Shown: positions 10,383 through 32,769 of the stretch, piece after piece | How positions within the stretch are numbered: the first letter of the stretch is position 1 | How the letters are laid out: every line of letters begins with the position of its first letter | Source: Candidatus Uhrbacteria bacterium | Lineage (GTDB): Bacteria > Patescibacteriota > Patescibacteriia > UBA9934 > GWF2-40-263 | DNA: 64,000 bases | Direction: 5' to 3' | NCBI GenBank assembly: GCA_016188475.1 | Contig: JACPHT010000006.1 | Span: forward strand, 68,313 to 132,312 | Notes under the pieces: model-generated | Database searches by the model: none | What the model was told of the DNA's origin: nothing | The model's input: the letters and a program-made list of their open reading frames with translations, nothing else | Position numbers and translations under genes: made by a program

Positions 10383-11480
10383 ATGAAAAGATGGGTCATT
10401 ATTTTAAGTTTGTTTCTGTCCGCTCTTACAACAACGAATGTCCTTGCTCAAGTAGCGACAGAACCAAGAGAAGTAAAAGCGACAATCACAAACATTCAAG
10501 ATCAAGTGTCAGATGGAAAACATTTTTATAATTTTGAAGCAAAAGATTCTTTTGGTGAAATTTTTAAGGCTGACACGACTGCATCGTATCCAAATGGTCT
10601 TTTTATACCGCTCAAAATTGGCGACAGAGTTCGATTGAGAATTGTAGAAAATCCTGACGGTACACAATCAACTTTTTTTGATGACAAAATCCGAACAGGA
10701 TCTCTCGCGGCTTTATTTTTTATTTTTGCGGTAATTGCAATAGCTATAGGATTTTTTCGAGGATTGTTTTCACTCATTGGCCTTGCATTTACGCTCATTG
10801 TTTTATTTTGGTTTTTGTTTCCTCAAATTCTCGCGGGCCGCGATCCGATTCTTATGACAGTTCTGGCTTCGATCGTAATATTATTCGTCAACATTCATTT
10901 ATCTCACGGTCTTCGTGTCCGAACTTTTTTTTCATTTCTCGGGACAGTTGCGGGATTATTTGTAGTCGTGGTATTGAGTTATATTTTCACGCACGCAAGT
11001 TCACTTTCTGGAGTTGGAACAGAGGAGTCAACATTTCTTTTGTGGGAAATTAAAACGATAAAAGATCCCGTTGCACTTTTTATCGCGGCGGTTATATTAG
11101 GTACAGTTGGAGTTTTGGACGATGTTGCTGTAACACAATCTGAAGTTGTTGGTGAGATGCTTGAAGTTGATTCAACACTATCGCGTAAGGATTTATTTTT
11201 TAGAGCAATGCGAGTTGGACGGCATCATATTGCCTCGACCGTAAATACGCTTGTTCTTGTTTATGCAGGAGCCGCGCTTCCGATATTTCTGCTTTTCTTT
11301 TCGTCGTCTTCGGATGTTGGTACGTTTTTGAATAACCAAGCCGTTGCTGAAGAATTTGTCAGAACGATAGTCGGAACGATTTCCCTAATGTTAACAGTTC
11401 CGTTTGCAACAGCGTTTGCTACAATTCCAAGGTCGAAGCATGCAAAAGAATTTGTTGACATTCATTCAAAAGAACGGTAG
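10383..11480 (+). CDS. YibE/F-family integral membrane protein with N-terminal extracytoplasmic domain
   Basis: Signal peptide (MKRWVIILSLFLSALTT), soluble domain, then ~8 TM helices. Likely start at 10383 rather than the ORF-track start 10338. Confidence 0.55.
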   Translation: MKRWVIILSLFLSALTTTNVLAQVATEPREVKATITNIQDQVSDGKHFYNFEAKDSFGEIFKADTTASYPNGLFIPLKIGDRVRLRIVENPDGTQSTFFDDKIRTGSLAALFFIFAVIAIAIGFFRGLFSLIGLAFTLIVLFWFLFPQILAGRDPILMTVLASIVILFVNIHLSHGLRVRTFFSFLGTVAGLFVVVVLSYIFTHASSLSGVGTEESTFLLWEIKTIKDPVALFIAAVILGTVGVLDDVAVTQSEVVGEMLEVDSTLSRKDLFFRAMRVGRHHIASTVNTLVLVYAGAALPIFLLFFSSSSDVGTFLNNQAVAEEFVRTIVGTISLMLTVPFATAFATIPRSKHAKEFVDIHSKER

Positions 11481-11980: not shown

Positions 11981-12062
11981 TTAATGCAGTTGTTGTACTA
12001 TGTCTCCGGGCCATCGGACTGTCGCCGTTGTTCCCTCCGACACAGCACAACAACTGCATTAA
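11981..12062. repeat. structured hairpin element S (copy 1): 23-bp stem, ~36-nt loop; related copy at 29977..30057
   Basis: ttaatgcagttgttgtactatgtc...gacacagcacaacaactgcattaa. The stem is perfect on the minus strand with two G-U pairs. The loop tccgggcca(t/g)cggact... is shared with copy 2. Confidence 0.6.
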
Positions 12063-13618: not shown

Positions 13619-14005
13619 ATGAAAAAACTCGTGCTTGTATTCGGAACATTTGACGGACTTCATGCCGGTCATTTGTTTTTTTTGAAACAAGCAAAAAGGG
13701 AAGGGGACATGCTTTTTGTTTCGGTTGCCCGCGATGAGCATGTTTGGATTTTGAAACAAAAAAAACCTAAATTTAATGAGCAAAAACGTTTGCAAACAGT
13801 ACGCTCGATTCCGTTTGTGGAGCACGCGCAATTTTCTGATCAAGTACTTGGAAGTTATAGCGTTTTTGAAAACGTAAATCCAGATGTGATAGTTTTTGGT
13901 TTTGATCAGCAGCAACTTAAAGCCAGTGTTGAAAAATGGATGAACGAACACAGACGTTCTATTAGAACAAAAATGATTGGTCAAAAAGAAAATTTTTCAA
14001 ATTAA
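13619..14005 (+). CDS. cytidylyltransferase-family protein (TagD/RfaE-domain-like nucleotidyltransferase)
   Basis: VFGTFDGLHAGHLFFL is the (H/T)xGH motif of the cytidylyltransferase superfamily; 128 aa, similar in size to TagD. Confidence 0.6.
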   Translation: MKKLVLVFGTFDGLHAGHLFFLKQAKREGDMLFVSVARDEHVWILKQKKPKFNEQKRLQTVRSIPFVEHAQFSDQVLGSYSVFENVNPDVIVFGFDQQQLKASVEKWMNEHRRSIRTKMIGQKENFSN

Positions 14006-14010
14006 CACAA

Positions 14011-14044
14011 TCACACTTAACTACCGATCGGTAGTTAAGTGTGA
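14011..14044. repeat. perfect 34-bp palindrome P (copy 1 of 3): tcacacttaactaccgatcggtagttaagtgtga
   Basis: Read directly; lies between the cytidylyltransferase stop and the alr start. Same core at 30930..30961 and 32219..32254. Confidence 0.7.
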
Positions 14045-14052
14045 TAATGAAT

Positions 14053-15186
14053 ATGGAACGAACATGGATTGAAATTGATGAACAAGCAATTATTTCAAAT
14101 ATAAAAACATTGCGCTCTCTGTCACAGGGAACTTGTTTTTGCGCAATCGTTAAAGCAAACGCATACGGACATGGAATGAAAGAAGTCGCTCAAATTGCGG
14201 CCCGTGTCGGAGTACAATCATTCGGTGTTGATACTTTGGAAGATGCGTTTATTCTTCGTGAAATTTTACCGAGCGCGCAAATAATAGTGCTTGGATACGT
14301 CATGCAACACGATTATCCGGAAGCTGTAAGAAATGCAATTGAATTAACGATTTCTGATCGTGAAGATATTGAACAATTGGAGCGTGTATCTTCCGCAACA
14401 GCGTCAACGGCTCAAATACACGCCAAAATTGAAACGGGAACATCAAGGAGAGGTATTCTAATGGAAGAACTTGTTGATTTTTTGCTTGAAATCAAGCGTA
14501 GTCATCATGTTTCAGTCAATGGAATATCAACGCACTTTGCCAATGTTGAAGATACTGGAAATTCCGAATATGCTTCAGTTCAATTTTCTCGATTTTCTGA
14601 AGCCATAAATGAATTTCAAAATTACGGTTTTAATCCTCCCTATATTCACTGCGCTTGTAGTGCGGCTATACTTCTTTATCCAGCCACTCACGGAACTCTT
14701 GTAAGAGCTGGAATCGGTCTTTATGGATTATGGCCTTCAGAATCTGTTGAACAAACAATGCACAAACAAAACATTTCATGTGAGTTGCGTCCAGTTTTAA
14801 AATGGAAAACACGTATTGCGCAGGTGAAGTCGTATTCTATTGGAACACCGATCGGATATGGATCAACAGAAAAGCTGAAACAACGAAGTCGTATTGCTGT
14901 TCTTCCGGTTGGTTATTGGGATGGGTATGATCGGTCGCTATCTTCCATTGGCGAAGTTCTTGTCGGGGGTTATAGATGTAAAGTTGTGGGAAGAGTTTGC
15001 ATGAATATGATGATGATTGATGTTTCATCTGTTCCAACAGTCGAAAAAGAACAAGTTGTGACATTGCTTGGAATTGATGGAAGACATGAAATTAGTGCGT
15101 CTGAGATCGCTAGAAAAATTCAAACCATACCTTATGAAATTGTGACAAGAATCAATCCACAGCTTCCTCGAATTGTACTTTCGTGA
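14053..15186 (+). CDS. alr: alanine racemase
   Basis: PLP-binding motif AIVKANAYGHG and overall Alr length. Start most likely the ATG at 14053 (MERTWIEIDEQAI); the ORF track gives an alternative start at 14041. Confidence 0.85.
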   Translation: MERTWIEIDEQAIISNIKTLRSLSQGTCFCAIVKANAYGHGMKEVAQIAARVGVQSFGVDTLEDAFILREILPSAQIIVLGYVMQHDYPEAVRNAIELTISDREDIEQLERVSSATASTAQIHAKIETGTSRRGILMEELVDFLLEIKRSHHVSVNGISTHFANVEDTGNSEYASVQFSRFSEAINEFQNYGFNPPYIHCACSAAILLYPATHGTLVRAGIGLYGLWPSESVEQTMHKQNISCELRPVLKWKTRIAQVKSYSIGTPIGYGSTEKLKQRSRIAVLPVGYWDGYDRSLSSIGEVLVGGYRCKVVGRVCMNMMMIDVSSVPTVEKEQVVTLLGIDGRHEISASEIARKIQTIPYEIVTRINPQLPRIVLS

Positions 15187-27565: not shown

Positions 27566-28507
27566 ATGAAGATCGTTTTTTTTGGCACACCATCCTTTGC
27601 GATTCCATTTTTAAAAGCTCTCATAAGCGAGAATGGTTTTGAGGTTATTGGTGTTGTCACTCAACCAGACAAACCTTCAGGACGCGGCAAGAAAATCCTT
27701 TCGTCTGAAGTTAAACAATTCGCCGTACAAAAAGGAATAGCTGTATTTCAATTTGCAAGTTTAAAAAAACCCGAAGCAGTTGAGGCACTTTCTTCATTGT
27801 GCGCTGACGTGTTTGTTGTTGTAGCTTACGGAAAAATTATTCCAAATCAAATTTTAAACATACCTCCTAAAGGTGTCGTTAACGTCCACCCTTCGATGTT
27901 GCCGAAATATAGAGGCCCTTCCCCGATGCAATGGGCAATTTTGAATGGGGATAAAAAAACTGGAATTTCAATAATGTTGTTAGATGAAGGAATGGATACC
28001 GGTCCGATACTCAAACAAACATCAATTGATTTATCCGAAAACGAGACAACAAAATCACTGGAAACAAAAATACACTCTGTTGGACCAAAATTTTTGTGTG
28101 AAGTTTTGAAATCGTACGAAAAAGGAAATTGTGCTCCATTCAAACAAAAAAAAGATGGCGCAAGCGGAACTCGACTTTTAACAAAAGAAGACGGACAAAT
28201 AAATTGGGACACTGACGCAAAAAGCATTGAAAGAATAATTCGAGCTTATACCGAATGGCCAACAGCTTGGTCAAAAATTAAGATAAATAACAAAACAACA
28301 AGACTAAAAATTTTGCAAGCAAAAGTCGTTCAAAAGAATTTTAATAAACCAAACGGAACATTGATCGAAGATGGAGGAAAACTTTTTATCGCTGTCAATT
28401 CAGAAGCTTTAGAACTCATGACTCTTCAGCCTGAAGGGAAATCACAGATGCCGGTGCAGGCATTTCTTGCTGGACGGAAAGATTGGATTGGTAAGATTTT
28501 TGAGTAG
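27566..28507 (+). CDS. fmt: methionyl-tRNA formyltransferase
   Basis: N-terminal formyltransferase domain (NVHPSMLPKYRGPSPMQWAILNGD) plus C-terminal domain; follows def. Confidence 0.9.
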   Translation: MKIVFFGTPSFAIPFLKALISENGFEVIGVVTQPDKPSGRGKKILSSEVKQFAVQKGIAVFQFASLKKPEAVEALSSLCADVFVVVAYGKIIPNQILNIPPKGVVNVHPSMLPKYRGPSPMQWAILNGDKKTGISIMLLDEGMDTGPILKQTSIDLSENETTKSLETKIHSVGPKFLCEVLKSYEKGNCAPFKQKKDGASGTRLLTKEDGQINWDTDAKSIERIIRAYTEWPTAWSKIKINNKTTRLKILQAKVVQKNFNKPNGTLIEDGGKLFIAVNSEALELMTLQPEGKSQMPVQAFLAGRKDWIGKIFE

Positions 28508-29966
28508 CTAAAGATTCAAATTCTTTTGGAACAAAGATCATCGTAAAAAGAATGAACCCCAAACCGATTGGATGATTTAGATACGGAGAAAATATGTGGG
28601 TTGCAAAGAGAAATACAAGACCACAAATCAGCCCAATTGAGATCCAAGAGTGTTCAGATTTCAAAAGCGTCATAAGGCGCTTGTTTATATATAAGAACAA
28701 AAACAAAAATCCAATAGGACCAAGTACTCCCATTTTCAACCACAACTCCAACCAGCCCCATTCCATAGCGTAAGTTGACCATTTTCCATCTACTTGAATT
28801 TCTCTTGCTCTTGGATCGTCAGTCTCAAAAGTTACCTCTTTGCCAAAACCATTTCCTATTATTGGATTTGATGAAATAGTTTGTATCATTGGGTCAACCA
28901 GTTTCCAACGACTTGAAATTGCCACGTCATCATTTTGTGTAAAACGTTTTACAAATAAATCAGATAAATCATGCCCTCCTACGCGTTGAGTTGGAAATGG
29001 AAATAAGACAATGATTGCAATAAAAAATAATGATAAAATTACGGAACTCAAAAAACAAATCAAACACAATTTCAATTTTATAACTTTCTTATTATCTCGA
29101 TGCAAGATAGTTACAAGAACAATAAGCGCAAAAATTATTCCTATCCAAAAACTTCTAGACAAACTTAAAATAAGAGTCGCAAACACCGCACTTAATAAAA
29201 CAACAGCTTGAACAGTTTCTCGTTTAGACTTTATGGAAGAAATCAACGCAAGAATGAATGTTCCAAAAACCAATGAAAAAAATTGAGTTTGAATAAAAAC
29301 ACGATAAATAGATGACCCGAGATTTGTAATTTCGGCTAATCGCACATCTCTTAAAAAAATGTAAGCCGTTTTAATTAACGTCTCTGAAACGTGTGTAAAA
29401 AAATAAAGAATAAAAAATGACAATAAGATATTCCACACTGCTCCGGCCGCGAAAACTTGAAGAAATTGCCCTTTTGATTTTTGGTTCCAATTGATTGAAA
29501 AAATTGGAAATGCGTAAAGCAAATAAAAATACGCGTTCCCGTCCTTAAAAACATTTAGCGCTTCATTCGAAATAAAACCTTTAACGAATCCGATTGATAT
29601 TGCAATCGCTAAAATCAAAAATGCAAAAATATCTTTCGATCTAACCAATGGTTTTCGTTTTGTTTTGATCAAATAAATTAAATAACCAATAAAAAAACCA
29701 ACAAAAACAGACATCCTTAGAGAAACGTTAAATGAAAATATTTCTGTTGATATTAGTTGCCCATGAGGGCCTGAAAAAAGTTCCAAAAAAACACCAAGAA
29801 GACCAAAAACTGGATTATATGCTGTAAAAAAAATCATGATCAAAACAATGAGAACCAAAAAGATGTCTGATCCTCCAACGAAATACGAAAGTAATGAAGT
29901 CAAAAACAAAACAAACAAAACGCAAAGCGACAAATAGAAAGTTTTGCCAAAGAATTGATCAATCAT
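28416..29966 (-). CDS. O-antigen ligase/polymerase (WaaL/Wzy_C)-like polytopic membrane protein
   Basis: About 12 TM helices; LSLSRSFWIGI and the periplasmic loop ...YAMEWGWLELWLKMGVLG resemble the Wzy_C/WaaL signature. Its 3' end overlaps fmt convergently by 92 bp. Confidence 0.55.
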   Translation of the reverse strand: MIDQFFGKTFYLSLCVLFVLFLTSLLSYFVGGSDIFLVLIVLIMIFFTAYNPVFGLLGVFLELFSGPHGQLISTEIFSFNVSLRMSVFVGFFIGYLIYLIKTKRKPLVRSKDIFAFLILAIAISIGFVKGFISNEALNVFKDGNAYFYLLYAFPIFSINWNQKSKGQFLQVFAAGAVWNILLSFFILYFFTHVSETLIKTAYIFLRDVRLAEITNLGSSIYRVFIQTQFFSLVFGTFILALISSIKSKRETVQAVVLLSAVFATLILSLSRSFWIGIIFALIVLVTILHRDNKKVIKLKLCLICFLSSVILSLFFIAIIVLFPFPTQRVGGHDLSDLFVKRFTQNDDVAISSRWKLVDPMIQTISSNPIIGNGFGKEVTFETDDPRAREIQVDGKWSTYAMEWGWLELWLKMGVLGPIGFLFLFLYINKRLMTLLKSEHSWISIGLICGLVFLFATHIFSPYLNHPIGLGFILFTMIFVPKEFESLATQKSYQSNLSVQQEMPAPASVISLQAEES

Positions 29967-29976
29967 ACAATTCAGT

Positions 29977-30057
29977 TAAATCAGTTGTCGTGCTATGTCT
30001 CCGGGCCAGCGGACTCTTCGCCGCTGTTCTCTACGACATAGCACGACAACTGATTTA
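29977..30057. repeat. structured hairpin element S (copy 2): perfect 22-bp stem, ~36-nt loop
   Basis: taaatcagttgtcgtgctatgtc...gacatagcacgacaactgattta. Shares loop and stem positions with copy 1 apart from compensatory changes. Confidence 0.6.
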
Positions 30058-30072
30058 GAAATCTTATTAGTA

Positions 30073-30918
30073 TCACATTGGTTTTAATAATGAAGCAATC
30101 ACACTGAATATCCAAAAAACTGGCTCTAGCAAAGTAAAGATTGAACCTATTACAATTCCAAAATGTTTACGCACGTACCTTCTAACGCTTCTGCGAAACA
30201 TGTTTTGTTTTTTTAGAGTTCCAACTCGATCAAAACTGCTTCCCTTTTTATGCTTTGCTTCAATATTTGCAAAATAGTGAACACGAAATCCAGAATTTTT
30301 CGCGCGTTTGCAATAATCAACTTCTTCGTACCACATAAAAAAATCATCATCCAGAAGGCCAATTCGATTGATCAAGGATCTTTTTATGCAAAAAAACGCA
30401 CCCATTACCTGATCAACATCAGCATCTCTTGAATAATCAAAATCATCCATTCGCCAGTTTGAAACTACTCGAACCGATGGAATTAAATGGTGAACTTTAA
30501 ACAAAAGAGCCAGTTGATTAGTTGGTGTTGGAAAACGCCACACGCATTTTTGTTGTGTCCCGTCAAAATTTTTCAGTGAAACACCACCGATGCCGATATC
30601 GGTTTCTTTGTCCATGGCATCTCTTAATTTATAAATTGAATCTTGAGTAAAAATAATGTCAGGATTTATTAAGACGATATAATCACCGTGCGCAGATTTA
30701 ATTCCTAAATTACATCCGCCGGCAAAACCAAGATTCACATTACTATAAATTATTCGAACACATGGAAAACGCATTGCGATTTTTGAGAGATCATCCCCGG
30801 AATTGTTTTCAACAACAATTACTTCAATATCATCTTTTGTGTGATTTGCAAAAAGACTTTCGAGCATGCGTTCGAGATAATCTGCTGTTTTATAATTGAC
30901 GGTAATTGTCGAGATCAT
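30073..30918 (-). CDS. family 2 glycosyltransferase
   Basis: ISTITVNYKTADYL...IEVIVVENNSGDD...INPDI; GT-A DxD-type architecture. Confidence 0.8.
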   Translation of the reverse strand: MISTITVNYKTADYLERMLESLFANHTKDDIEVIVVENNSGDDLSKIAMRFPCVRIIYSNVNLGFAGGCNLGIKSAHGDYIVLINPDIIFTQDSIYKLRDAMDKETDIGIGGVSLKNFDGTQQKCVWRFPTPTNQLALLFKVHHLIPSVRVVSNWRMDDFDYSRDADVDQVMGAFFCIKRSLINRIGLLDDDFFMWYEEVDYCKRAKNSGFRVHYFANIEAKHKKGSSFDRVGTLKKQNMFRRSVRRYVRKHFGIVIGSIFTLLEPVFWIFSVIASLLKPM

Positions 30919-30929
30919 AATTCAGACAT

Positions 30930-30961
30930 TTCACTTAACTACCGATCGGTAGTTAAGTGAA
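30930..30961. repeat. perfect 32-bp palindrome P (copy 2 of 3): ttcacttaactaccgatcggtagttaagtgaa
   Basis: Lies between two GT2 genes; the TAA stop of the upstream GT2 (30953-30955) sits inside the right arm. Confidence 0.7.
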
Positions 30962-31675
30962 ATTCTTAAATTTTAATCGATGTTTTATTTTAATCACTTT
31001 TTCTGCATTTTTAAAATCTCGTATCGTTTTTGGAGTCCATCCAATTGCGTACCACGGAATTCGATATAAAATAGATGGCGTCCATTTTGAAATATTTTTT
31101 CTTCCACTGACGTTTCTCACATAAAATAAAATCTCGTTAATCTCCATTCCAATTTTATTATTTTCAAGCATTGTCAACCACAAATCCCAATCTTGCAAAC
31201 GCTTAATTTTCGGATCAAATCCAGGGAAATCCTGTTTTCTTATGAGCGAGGTCGTATGTATGTAATTCGATTTACGAAGTTTGTCAGCGTCAAAGGTTTG
31301 AGCTGGAAATTTCTTATTATCCCAAAGAAATCCGCAATAAACATACGAAACGTCTTTGTGTGTTTCCAAAACAGAAAACATTTTTTCAAGCATGTTTGGT
31401 TTGAAGAAAATATCTGCATCAGAAAAAAGTAAAAAATTTCCAGTTGCTAGTTTAGCGCCGTTATTTCTTGCTGTCGGAGCACCTTGATTGTTTTGAAACA
31501 CGTATTTAATTTTATCACCAAAACGATCAATACGAATTTTTGTATCATCTGTTGATCCATCATCAACAACAATAATTTCTTTTGGAAGAAGTGTCTGCGA
31601 CAATAAAGAATCAATACAGTTTTCTATTGTCTTTGTATGTTGGAAGGTTGGAATGATCACCGAAATCTCATTCAT
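30953..31675 (-). CDS. family 2 glycosyltransferase
   Basis: ISVIIPTFQHTKTIENCIDSLLSQT...EIIVVDDGSTDDT. Start taken at the internal Met (MNEISVIIP) rather than the ORF-track start at 31711. Confidence 0.8.
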   Translation of the reverse strand: MNEISVIIPTFQHTKTIENCIDSLLSQTLLPKEIIVVDDGSTDDTKIRIDRFGDKIKYVFQNNQGAPTARNNGAKLATGNFLLFSDADIFFKPNMLEKMFSVLETHKDVSYVYCGFLWDNKKFPAQTFDADKLRKSNYIHTTSLIRKQDFPGFDPKIKRLQDWDLWLTMLENNKIGMEINEILFYVRNVSGRKNISKWTPSILYRIPWYAIGWTPKTIRDFKNAEKVIKIKHRLKFKNFT

Positions 31676-32769
31676 AAATACGGCTCGAGTTTTGCAAACT
31701 GTTGTGAACAAGTGAAATTTTGTTCAACATGTTCTTTTGCTTGTTTTCCTAATCTGATTCGCATTTCAGTTGAATTAGAAAGAACAGAAATTGCGCGACA
31801 CAAGTCTTCATGATCGTTTGGTTTAACTAAAAGTCCGGTTTGATTGTTAATTATAGCCTCGTTAATTCCGCTAATTTGAGTGCTGATTGACGGGACTTCA
31901 TAATTTGCGGCTTCTATAAACACAAATCCAAAACCTTCTTTGTCTTTTACATCATCGATAACCGGCATTAAAAATATGTCGGCGTTCATGTAAAAATTTA
32001 CTAATTGCTCATCGTTCACTAAACCATGAAATACAACCTCGTCCAAATGAAATTGTCCTGCGAGATCTTTGAGAGTTTGCAACATTGGCCCATCGCCAAC
32101 AATGTCATATTGAAAACTTGGGATTGATTTGGATTTTTTAAGTTCAGCAAGCGCCATCAAAACTTGTGTGTGACCCTTTCGTTTTACCAATCGACTGACA
32201 GTCAAGAATCTAAGCGTTATCACACTTAACTCCCGATCGGTAGTTAAGTGTGATTGGGTTTTTGTTACAGATTCCAAACATGGATACACAACGAGAGGTA
32301 AGGTTACGTCAAAAATTTCTGCGACTTCTTGCGCGAGTGATCGTGAATTTGCAACCACAACTCGCGCGTGCTTAAAAACAACTTTTGCAATTTGTTTTTT
32401 TATAAAGTTTGAACACGCGAGCCGAACATCCATTCCGTGAACAAAAATAACATACTGCTTTTTCGTAAACAAAGAAGAAAAAAATGCCGCTGTCCCAAAA
32501 GGAAGGACATGACTTAAAAGCGCGATATCATAAGATTGTCGAAATGTAAAAAACAATCTAACTGATTCAATCCACTTCGGCCAAAAAAATGGATTTAGAA
32601 GTTGCTGTTCAAGAACGGGAAACGGAGTTGTTTGCGCTGAATTTTTCACCGAAGAAATAACAAGAATGCGCGAAGAAAAATGTGTCGCCAGTTTTGATAA
32701 ATATCTAGCAACTCCTCCATTATTTGGTGGAAAATCCGGTGTTAGCAATAATAATCGATTTTCCCTCAT
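31672..32769 (-). CDS. family 4 (GT-B, GT1-superfamily) glycosyltransferase carrying an in-frame palindromic insertion
   Basis: LLLLTPDFPPNNGGVARY N-terminus and C-terminal ...SRLVKRKGHTQVL...GDGP...E(X7)E-type region. Residues SHLTTDRELSVI are encoded by palindrome P copy 3. Confidence 0.7.
   Translation of the reverse strand: MRENRLLLLTPDFPPNNGGVARYLSKLATHFSSRILVISSVKNSAQTTPFPVLEQQLLNPFFWPKWIESVRLFFTFRQSYDIALLSHVLPFGTAAFFSSLFTKKQYVIFVHGMDVRLACSNFIKKQIAKVVFKHARVVVANSRSLAQEVAEIFDVTLPLVVYPCLESVTKTQSHLTTDRELSVITLRFLTVSRLVKRKGHTQVLMALAELKKSKSIPSFQYDIVGDGPMLQTLKDLAGQFHLDEVVFHGLVNDEQLVNFYMNADIFLMPVIDDVKDKEGFGFVFIEAANYEVPSISTQISGINEAIINNQTGLLVKPNDHEDLCRAISVLSNSTEMRIRLGKQAKEHVEQNFTCSQQFAKLEPYL
32219..32254. 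repeat. 36-bp palindrome P (copy 3 of 3, one arm mismatch), inside the GT4 coding frame
   Basis: atcacacttaactcccgatcggtagttaagtgtgat. Length is a multiple of 3 and it is read through without a stop. Confidence 0.65.

What the first reader, a model, noticed from the sequence alone, without database searches (positions are those of the whole stretch)
32219..32254. 36-bp palindrome inserted in-frame inside a GT4 glycosyltransferase gene
The palindrome atcacacttaactcccgatcggtagttaagtgtgat (one arm mismatch) is 36 bp, a multiple of 3. It is translated without interruption as ...TQSHLTTDRELSVITL... just upstream of the conserved (V)GRLVxxKG region of the GT4 C-terminal domain. The same core occurs as perfect palindromes at 14011..14044 (alr upstream) and 30930..30961 (between two GT2 genes, supplying the stop codon of one). 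A mobile palindromic element that tolerates, or is selected for, in-frame coding insertion is unusual. The insert may add a 12-residue loop to the enzyme or mark a recent insertion.
Basis: seen in the sequence. Interest (0 to 1): 0.55.

Follow-up and report, generated by a model that had tools for sequence, protein, structure and literature searches.

The report
Conserved palindrome translated inside glycosyltransferase linker
A 36-base DNA palindrome read through as 12 amino acids in a floppy linker of a sugar-transferase gene is real and old, and it is one of a few scattered copies of the palindrome that brackets a small DNA-binding-type protein gene in the same bacterium, so it is most likely that protein's docking site.

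Summary
The window has three copies of a 28-bp invariant palindrome core with 4-bp palindromic extensions, and none is expected by chance. The copy at 32219-32254 lies in frame in a GT4 gene on the minus strand. It encodes residues 173-184 (SHLTTDRELSVI) in the disordered linker between the two GT-B domains. A perfect palindrome would read TAG in this frame; the single arm mismatch makes it GAG.

It is not a recent insertion. All three window copies sit at orthologous positions in a Uhrbacteria MAG (JACQXU01) whose flanking genes are only 68-79% identical, yet the core is unchanged. Closer relatives lack the copies at the two sites that could be checked.

The family is confined to this small clade: 10 hits in 185,579 species genomes, in two MAGs.

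The new finding is an association with one gene. A single-copy gene for a roughly 194-aa protein (probable winged-helix domain plus PaaX_M/Cas2-like domain) carries a palindrome upstream in all five lineages examined. It also carries one at its 3' end in all four where that end could be read. The palindrome sequence differs between lineages. The window's own assembly almost certainly encodes this protein.

Best reading: these are dispersed copies of that protein's cognate site. Binding and any regulatory effect are inferred, not shown.

The parts
32219..32254 (-). Palindrome copy 3, translated in frame as GT4 residues 173-184 (SHLTTDRELSVI). The coding strand reads ...CGG GAG..., where the perfect palindrome would read CGG TAG.
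31672..32769 (-). GT4 (GT-B fold, PimB'/BshA-like) glycosyltransferase gene that hosts the palindrome in its inter-domain linker.
30928..30963 (.). Palindrome copy 2 (ATTTCAC...GTGAAAT; core 30932-30959) at the junction of the two GT2 genes. It supplies the last codons and the TAA stop of the upstream GT2 gene and ends 9 nt before the ATG of the downstream GT2 gene. Palindrome-free relatives have a 4-nt ATGA overlap at this junction.
30953..31711 (-). Upstream GT2 gene. Its C-terminal extension (...KFKNFT*) and stop codon come from the inserted palindrome-bearing segment.
30073..30918 (-). Downstream GT2 gene, immediately 3' of palindrome copy 2.
14010..14045 (.). Palindrome copy 1 (perfect 36 bp). 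It lies 4 nt after the stop of a cytidylyltransferase-like gene and 7 nt before the conserved ATG of alr (14053).
14053..15186 (+). Alanine racemase gene downstream of copy 1. The start was placed at the ATG conserved with JACQXU01 (MERTW).
13619..14005 (+). Cytidylyltransferase-like gene upstream of copy 1.

Best explanation
The 36-bp palindrome in the GT4 gene is one of a few dispersed copies of the palindrome that brackets a single-copy gene in this Uhrbacteria clade. That gene encodes a small protein with a probable winged-helix domain and a PaaX_M (Cas2-like) domain; in the window's genome it is HYV69_03670 (P0122), on another contig. The likely history is that a 36-bp unit was copied into a handful of permissive places in an ancestor of the window lineage and JACQXU01. 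Those places are tiny gene junctions inside operons and, in GT4, the disordered linker between the two Rossmann-like domains. Since then the 28-bp core has stayed unchanged while the surrounding genes diverged by 20-30%. This argues that the sequence itself is recognised, most simply as a dimer-binding site for the PaaX-like protein, acting as an operator or roadblock. In GT4 the DNA site is the selected object, and the peptide SHLTTDRELSVI is a tolerated passenger in a hypervariable loop. It stays open only in the variant that reads GAG instead of TAG. What is shown: the family, the positions, the conservation, the linker location and the gene-palindrome association. What is inferred: protein binding, the copy-and-paste origin and any regulatory effect.
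For: (1) Real family: 3 copies where 0 are expected. (2) Narrow clade: the pattern TTAACTNCCGATCGGNAGTTAA hit only 10 stretches in 185,579 species genomes. Eight are in JACQXU01 and two in DeMMO2_27. JGI metagenomes gave two contigs and viral contigs none. (3) Orthologous conservation: copy 1 = L015 2233-2268, copy 2 = L014 7231-7266, copy 3 = L012 536-571. Palindrome identity is 36/36, 32/36 (the four differences are symmetric and outside the core) and 36/36, against 70-82% in the 40-nt flanks. (4) Codon test in GT4: 11 of 12 palindrome codons are identical between window and L002, against 52% identical codons at identical-residue sites elsewhere in the gene (P about 4e-4). The linker is otherwise hypervariable among homologues. 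(5) Gene association: the only two hits in DeMMO2_27 flank the PaaX-like gene, one 11 nt upstream of the ATG and the other supplying the last codons and stop. JACQXU01 has both flanking copies. (6) Covariation: homologues at 60-64% identity (L019, L020, L021) are flanked at both ends by related but different palindromes. In four of five lineages the 5' and 3' copies match each other (23-28 of 28) better than they match any other lineage (15-23 of 28); L021 is the exception (21, against 23 to the L020 5' copy). (7) Same genome: P0001 (MBI2475133) and P0122 (MBI2475495, HYV69_03670) have accessions 362 apart. (8) Protein type: PaaX_M scores 37-39 bits, above the 24-bit cut-off. There is a collinear weak match to PaaX regulators, and a family profile matches ArsR/CzrA winged-helix repressors in the PDB at E = 3e-4. 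(9) Permissive site: the AlphaFold model has mean pLDDT 90.8. Its only segment below 50 is residues 177-179, inside the palindrome peptide, in coil before strand 186-191. The fold is PimB'/BshA-like GT-B. (10) No homologue of the protein turned up from the samples of the palindrome-free relatives L003 and L004. This is suggestive only.
Against: There is no binding data. The winged-helix assignment rests on weak matches, and the structure model of the protein is unusable (pLDDT 41). Dispersed copies are almost identical to one another over 36 bp. That looks like copy-and-paste repeats rather than a naturally evolved regulon. Their neighbours are functionally unrelated: alr, GT2, GT4, Wzy, enolase, PepA, a serine recombinase. 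The consensus scan found no sigma-70-type promoter at the PaaX-like gene in L022. The TATAAT seen in the right arm of the 5' copies of L019-L021 is a by-eye observation. DeMMO2_27 has the protein and its two flanking copies but no dispersed copies matching the pattern. The copying mechanism is unknown. Presence and absence on the GT4 tree are equally parsimonious as one gain with losses or as repeated gains.
Confidence: 0.5

Rival explanations
1. REP/RAYT-like selfish or semi-domesticated system. The protein's Cas2-like domain would be the enzyme that copies the palindromes that flank its own gene to new sites. The dispersed copies would be non-autonomous replicators rather than regulatory sites. 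The GT4 copy would survive only because it landed in a permissive linker.
For: The architecture matches that of RAYT genes and REP sequences: a single-copy, syntenic gene flanked by cognate palindromes, plus dispersed near-identical copies (bioRxiv 10.1101/2021.07.10.451892 for the REPIN-RAYT description). Dispersed copies share the outer ATCA/TGAT and so resemble each other more than they resemble the gene-flanking copies. Asp121 in the SFDIPE strand is invariant across 56 family members. The C-terminal domain matches Cas2 weakly: PDB E about 4e-3, and TIGR01573 at E 0.045. Copies sit wherever insertion is harmless, with no functional theme.
Against: The protein has no HUH/Y1 transposase domain or any other known transposase domain. 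No nuclease or transposition activity is known for PaaX_M domains. Copy number is very low. No target-site duplication is seen and no recent insertion polymorphism could be demonstrated. A 100% conserved core at three orthologous sites is not expected for neutral relics.
Confidence: 0.25
2. The palindromes act as RNA hairpins in polycistronic mRNAs, independently of the PaaX-like protein. They could be processing sites, stabilisers, or devices that uncouple translation at gene junctions. The GT4 copy would be a by-product.
For: The predicted hairpins are very stable: -23.8 kcal/mol for the perfect copy and -19.7 for the GT4 copy, with z-scores of -7 to -8. Most copies lie in short spacers just upstream of start codons of co-directional genes. 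Symmetric double changes keep the pairing: the outer TT/AA against CA/TG in copy 2, the C/G variant in L013, and the T->A variant in the 3' copy of L022.
Against: A purely structural function would let the arms covary freely. Instead 28 bp are invariant across all dispersed copies and across genomes. The A.G or C.U mismatch variant is tolerated in intergenic copies too (L010, L016). On the transcribed strand the copies are not followed by T-runs; the terminator-like calls are on the opposite strand. This reading does not explain the specific bracketing of one gene in five lineages.
Confidence: 0.15
3. The palindrome is native GT4 coding sequence that happens to be palindromic, or it is an assembly artefact.
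For: Orthologues do have a linker of similar length at this position.
Against: The same 28-36 bp occurs at two other places in the window and in at least nine places in another genome. It was recovered in independent assemblies from different samples: L001, L017, L002 and L012. Palindrome-free orthologues show no sequence similarity there, only 6 of 39 nt.
Confidence: 0.02

Closest known systems
REP/REPIN sequences with their RAYT gene (Gammaproteobacteria)
   Same: Short palindromes of about 35 bp are dispersed in the chromosome. A single-copy, vertically inherited gene is flanked by its own cognate palindromes. Palindrome and protein change together between lineages, and copies persist at orthologous sites.
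   Different: The flanked gene here encodes a probable winged-helix plus PaaX_M (Cas2-like) protein, not an HUH/Y1 transposase. Copies are single perfect palindromes, not REP doublets. Copy number is about 10 rather than tens to hundreds. One copy is translated.
Rickettsia palindromic elements (RPE) and intragenic MITEs (ERIC, Correia, Nezha)
   Same: A palindromic repeat is inserted in frame in a housekeeping enzyme gene. It is read through as extra peptide at a structurally permissive surface or linker position while the host gene stays intact.
   Different: RPEs are about 100-150 bp and encode a conserved peptide module. This element is only 36 bp and has stops in 2 of 3 frames. It has no detectable target-site duplication. 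It is linked to a specific protein gene. It comes from a CPR bacterium.
Autoregulated winged-helix repressors with palindromic operators (PaaX, ArsR/SmtB-type)
   Same: A small protein of winged-helix type has a palindrome immediately upstream of its own start codon. A symmetric site suits a dimer. The site changes with the protein.
   Different: The sites are 28-36 bp perfect palindromes, identical between loci, and evidently spread by copying. A second copy sits at the 3' end of the gene. The protein lacks the PaaX C-terminal domain. No common functional theme links the other sites.

Membership tests
REP/REPIN-RAYT system | The cognate gene flanked by the repeats encodes a RAYT (HUH/Y1 tyrosine transposase, Pfam Y1_Tnp). 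| tested here: not met
   Pfam and NCBIfam scans of P0121 and P0123-P0126 give PaaX_M plus weak winged-helix matches and no transposase family.
REP/REPIN-RAYT system | Short palindromic repeats dispersed mainly in extragenic space, with copies flanking the cognate gene. | tested here: met
   Copies lie in gene junctions, with one intragenic. The PaaX-like gene has a palindrome upstream in all five lineages examined and at its 3' end in the four where that end could be read.
REP/REPIN-RAYT system | Repeats occur as inverted doublets (REPINs) in tens to hundreds of copies. | tested here: not met
   Copies are single palindromes. There are 3 in 64 kb of the window, 8 pattern matches in JACQXU01 (plus a variant 3' copy found in L022) and 2 in DeMMO2_27.
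MITE | Terminal inverted repeats with a target-site duplication at the insertion. | tested here: not met
   The whole unit is one palindrome. Abutting flanks of 12 copies share no direct repeat beyond the palindromic AT ends. Comparison of filled and empty GT2/GT2 sites is ambiguous, with at most a TA.
MITE | Presence/absence polymorphism between related genomes with a recognisable empty site. | tested here: met
   In L003 and L004 the two GT2 genes overlap by ATGA, where the window, L017 and L014 carry about 55 extra nt that include the palindrome.
Rickettsia palindromic elements | In-frame insertion in a conserved gene that adds a peptide segment without disrupting the fold. | tested here: met
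   Residues 173-184 lie in the low-confidence coil between the GT-B domains. The invariant residues of the 27-sequence GT4 alignment (including the EGFG...E motif) are conserved, and the ORF is intact in three lineages.
Rickettsia palindromic elements | Sequence membership in one of the RPE families (about 100-150 bp). | not tested
   No RPE library was available. The length (36 bp) and the host phylum differ. The Rfam gathering search of the window found nothing.
Winged-helix repressor/operator pair (PaaX-like) | The protein has a winged-helix DNA-binding domain. | tested here: inconclusive
   A family profile matches ArsR/CzrA repressors at E 3e-4. PaaX N-terminal and GntR matches are below threshold. 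The AlphaFold model is poor, pLDDT 41.
Winged-helix repressor/operator pair (PaaX-like) | A palindromic site at its own promoter, with site sequence covarying with the protein. | tested here: inconclusive
   The palindrome lies 11 nt or less upstream of the ATG in five lineages and differs between lineages. No canonical promoter was found by the scan in L022.
Winged-helix repressor/operator pair (PaaX-like) | Specific binding of the protein to the site. | not testable with these tools
   Needs EMSA, footprinting or DAP-seq.
Intrinsic terminator | Hairpin followed by a T-run on the transcribed strand. | tested here: not met
   The terminator-like calls for copies 1 and 2 are on the strand opposite to the flanking genes. 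Copy 3 is inside an ORF.
GT4 / GT-B glycosyltransferase (host gene) | Glycos_transf_1 and Glyco_transf_4 domains and a GT-B fold. | tested here: met
   Pfam E = 1.5e-35. The model matches PimB' and BshA with TM 0.8-0.84.

The most novel reading that the evidence does not exclude
A previously undescribed two-part system in CPR bacteria. A single-copy gene for a winged-helix plus Cas2-like (PaaX_M) protein is bracketed by its own 28-36-bp palindromes, and that protein copies or maintains them at other chromosomal sites. It would be a functional analogue of REP-RAYT built on a Cas2-like fold instead of an HUH transposase. The protein family is large: 1,269 representatives of 50%-identity clusters.
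Probability: 0.2. Interest if true: 0.8.

Novelty: new variant of a known kind. Interest (0 to 1): 0.55.

Why it matters
Three points make this more than a curiosity. First, it is a clean case in which a nucleic-acid-level signal, not the protein, is what is conserved inside a coding region: 12 codons are frozen in an otherwise hypervariable enzyme linker. Second, it links a dispersed palindrome family in an uncultured CPR lineage to a specific candidate partner protein. That makes the function directly testable with one recombinant protein and one oligonucleotide. Third, if the partner protein turns out to mobilise the repeats, it would be a new enzymatic basis for REP-like elements. It would also give a first function to a large family of short PaaX_M/Cas2-like proteins.

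Tried and rejected
- **Regulon idea:** neighbours of 12 copies were annotated and show no common function.
- **Target-site duplication and TTAA target:** none was found.
- **Known RNA family:** no Rfam hit in the window.
- **Terminator:** the calls fall on the wrong strand.
- **Phage or plasmid origin:** no palindrome in viral contigs. No homologue of the PaaX-like protein in viral contigs, plasmids or phages.
- **Extending the window's contig:** two look-ups with window-end ORFs failed because the called starts differ. The look-up of P0122 also failed, so the palindromes around the window genome's own PaaX-like gene could not be read.
- **Structure of the PaaX-like protein:** unusable, pLDDT 41.
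- **Paralogues:** a search of all held loci with two profiles found none.
- **Literature:** searches for PaaX with Cas2-like, or PaaX with Patescibacteria, found nothing.
- **Recent recombination patch in GT4:** rejected, because the immediate flanks are at background identity.

Full report
**1. Observation**

The sequence at 32219-32254 is a 36-bp palindrome with 18-nt arms, no spacer and one mismatch. Its 28-bp core CACTTAACTACCGATCGGTAGTTAAGTG occurs three times in the window. The positions are 14014-14041 and 30932-30959, both perfect, and 32223-32250 with one mismatch. Dinucleotide-preserving shuffles gave 0.00 matches.

The host ORF is 31672-32769 on the minus strand and encodes 365 aa. 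It is a GT4 glycosyltransferase (Pfam Glycos_transf_1, E = 1.5e-35). It is identical to NCBI protein MBI2475133 from a Candidatus Uhrbacteria MAG.

On the coding strand the palindrome reads TCA CAC TTA ACT ACC GAT CGG GAG TTA AGT GTG AT, which gives residues 173-184, SHLTTDRELSVI. A perfect palindrome would read TAG where the gene has GAG. So the single arm mismatch is exactly what keeps the frame open.

The perfect element is open in only one of three frames, and because it is a palindrome this holds on both strands. This is why copy 2 supplies the stop codon of the upstream GT2 gene.

**2. Is it an insertion, and where in the protein?**

In an alignment of 27 orthologues the peptide falls in a hypervariable segment between the two conserved domains. 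Of the 120 GT4 homologues retrieved, only P0001, P0002 (85% identity) and P0005 (65%) contain the peptide.

The linker from YPC to TVSRL is 25 residues long in carriers. The mode is 20, with a main range of 17-27 and a few longer outliers, in 106 homologues. It is 25, 21 and 27 residues in the palindrome-free relatives P0004, P0003 and P0006. So the palindrome is foreign in sequence, but it is not a clean 12-residue addition.

The AlphaFold model is confident overall (mean pLDDT 90.8). Its only segment below 50 is residues 177-179. Residues 166-185 are coil, leading into the first strand of the C-terminal domain at 186-191. The fold matches PimB', BshA and MshA with TM scores of 0.8-0.84. The residues invariant across the 27-sequence GT4 alignment are all present. 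The peptide is therefore in the inter-domain linker of an apparently functional enzyme.

**3. Age and conservation**

The DNA of the carriers holds the same palindrome with the same TAG->GAG change. These are L001 for P0002, L002 and L012 for P0005, and L017.

Window and L002 are 68.6% identical across the rest of the gene but 37 of 39 nt identical across the palindrome region. At residues that are identical between the two proteins, 52% of codons are identical outside the palindrome. Inside it, 11 of 12 are identical (P about 4e-4).

All three window copies have positional orthologues in MAG JACQXU01:
- alr upstream = L015 2233-2268
- GT2/GT2 junction = L014 7231-7266
- GT4 = L012 536-571

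Palindrome identity at these sites is 36/36, 32/36 and 36/36. The 40-nt flanks are 70-82% identical. The four differences in copy 2 are two symmetric pairs outside the 28-bp core.

The closer relatives L003 and L004 are 78-89% identical to the window. They have no palindrome at the GT4 linker, and their two GT2 genes overlap by ATGA.

On GT4 identities, the window, L001 and the L003/L004 pair are about equidistant (0.83-0.86). L002 and L006 are distant (0.65-0.67). One gain followed by losses and several independent gains are therefore equally parsimonious. I prefer a single origin, because the position, the frame and the G variant are all identical.

The insertion is not recent. What is conserved is the nucleic acid sequence, not the peptide.

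**4. Distribution**

The pattern TTAACTNCCGATCGGNAGTTAA hit 10 stretches among 185,579 species-representative genomes. Eight are in JACQXU01 and two are in MAG DeMMO2_27. JGI metagenomes gave two contigs and viral contigs gave none.

Copies lie in short spacers between co-directional genes, once between convergent genes, and once in a coding region. Their neighbours are functionally unrelated: alr, GT2, GT4, Wzy, enolase, PepA, a serine recombinase and dCMP deaminase.

No target-site duplication is visible.

**5. The associated gene**

The two DeMMO2_27 hits lie in adjacent stored blocks (L016 and L010). They bracket a 194-aa gene. One palindrome lies 11 nt upstream of the ATG, and the other encodes the last residues and the stop.

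JACQXU01 has the orthologue (88% identity). It carries a 5' copy at L022 9954-9989 and a 3' copy at 10577-10608. The 3' copy has a symmetric T->A change in both arms, which is why the pattern scan missed it.

Homologues at 60-64% identity, on contigs L019, L020 and L021, are each flanked at both ends by palindromes of the same layout but different arm sequence. Examples are ..ATACATCCGGCCGGATGTAT....ACATCYGATCRGATGT.. and ..ACTTCCGATYGGAAGT... In four of the five lineages the 5' and 3' copies match each other at 23-28 of 28 positions. That is more than either matches any other lineage (15-23 of 28). L021 is the exception: its two copies match at 21, while its 5' copy matches the L020 5' copy at 23.

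The gene keeps its chromosomal neighbourhood. It is convergent with a dCMP deaminase / deoxyribosyltransferase gene, inside a thymidylate-metabolism cluster.

The window's own assembly almost certainly encodes the protein. P0122 is MBI2475495 with locus tag HYV69_03670, which is 362 accession numbers after the GT4 protein. Its DNA could not be fetched.

No homologue was found from the samples that yielded the palindrome-free L003 and L004. Given incomplete MAGs, this is only suggestive.

**6. What the protein is**

- Pfam PaaX_M ("PaaX central Cas2-like domain") scores 37-39 bits, above the 24-bit cut-off.
- There is a weak collinear match to the PaaX regulator model, and a weak cas2 match.
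- An exhaustive profile search found 1,269 representatives of 50%-identity clusters at E <= 1e-3. Most are 160-200 aa long.
- A 56-sequence family profile matches ArsR/CzrA winged-helix repressors in the PDB at E = 3e-4 in its N-terminal half. It matches Cas2 at E about 4e-3 in its C-terminal half.
- Asp121, Arg130 and Ser148 are invariant in that alignment.
- The structure model is unusable, with pLDDT 41.

**7. Interpretation**

The best-supported reading is that the palindrome is the cognate site of this protein and that the GT4 copy is a dispersed copy of that site. The copies are identical over 36 bp, including the outer ATCA/TGAT that the gene-flanking copies lack. This implies an origin by copying, not by point mutation. 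Their invariance at orthologous sites implies continued sequence-specific constraint.

I cannot tell whether the protein is a repressor whose sites were spread by some other mechanism, or whether it spreads them itself as a REP-RAYT-like system. I rate these at about 0.5 and 0.25.

A purely RNA-structural role explains the strong hairpins (-20 to -24 kcal/mol) and the symmetric double changes. It does not explain the invariant 28 bp, nor the specific bracketing of one gene.

Terminator function is not supported, because the calls are on the wrong strand. No canonical promoter was found at the PaaX-like gene. The TATAAT hexamer in the right arm of the 5' copies in L019-L021 is a by-eye observation only.

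**8. Comparison with known systems**

In-frame palindromic repeats are known, for example Rickettsia palindromic elements and intragenic ERIC and other MITEs (PMC10969869).

The architecture of a single-copy gene flanked by its cognate palindromes, with dispersed copies elsewhere, is that of REP/REPIN-RAYT (bioRxiv 10.1101/2021.07.10.451892). However, the defining HUH transposase is absent here. I found no paper that links PaaX-like or Cas2-like proteins to dispersed palindromes.

I file it as a new variant of a known kind, with interest 0.55.

Noticed in passing
window 11981-12062 and 29977-30057: A second inverted-repeat family: 23-24-nt arms around a G+C-rich 34-35-nt spacer, with the two copies 86% alike. 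Both lie between co-directional genes. The inner part is conserved at the orthologous GT2/Wzy junction in L003 (12665-12691) and L004 (8303-8340), but is absent from JACQXU01 (L014). There is no Rfam match. It could be a structured RNA or another small element.
   Followed up: partly
L004 1813-1937 and 2653-2772 (also L005): Two elements of about 120 nt with terminal inverted repeats of about 17 nt. They are inserted exactly at the stop/start junctions rpoA|rplQ and rplM|rpsI. The window and L003 have 2-nt junctions there. This is a different small insertion family in a sister lineage.
   Followed up: partly
L015 167-216 and L022 19883-19918 (JACQXU01): A second family of long perfect palindromes centred on CCGGCCGG (for example TTCCAAATAACATCCGGCCGGATGTTATTTGGAA). 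It resembles the palindromes that flank the PaaX-like gene of L019. No second PaaX-like gene was found in the DNA held.
   Followed up: partly
L020 317-832: The PaaX-like gene of this contig has an in-frame TAG where homologues have TGG (Trp). The reading frame continues to a normal end 60 nt later. This could be a pseudogene, a sequencing error or a recoded stop.
   Followed up: no
window about 27566-29966: Gene orientation and GC skew both switch near 28.4 kb. The plus-strand fmt gene (27566-28507) and the minus-strand Wzy_C gene (28416-29966) converge and overlap by about 90 nt. This may be a replication terminus or only a local convergence.
   Followed up: no
L011 1-1236 (JACQXU01): One dispersed palindrome lies 64 nt downstream of a large serine recombinase gene (Recombinase plus Zn_ribbon_recom domains). 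A link to an integrated element was not examined.
   Followed up: no
L022 7596-14134 (JACQXU01): The PaaX-like gene sits inside a deoxynucleotide/thymidylate cluster: dCTP deaminase, deoxyribosyltransferase, dCMP deaminase, DHFR, ThyA, dUTPase-like and Tmk. The same convergent dCMP-deaminase neighbour is seen in L016 and L020. This hints at what the protein might originally regulate.
   Followed up: partly
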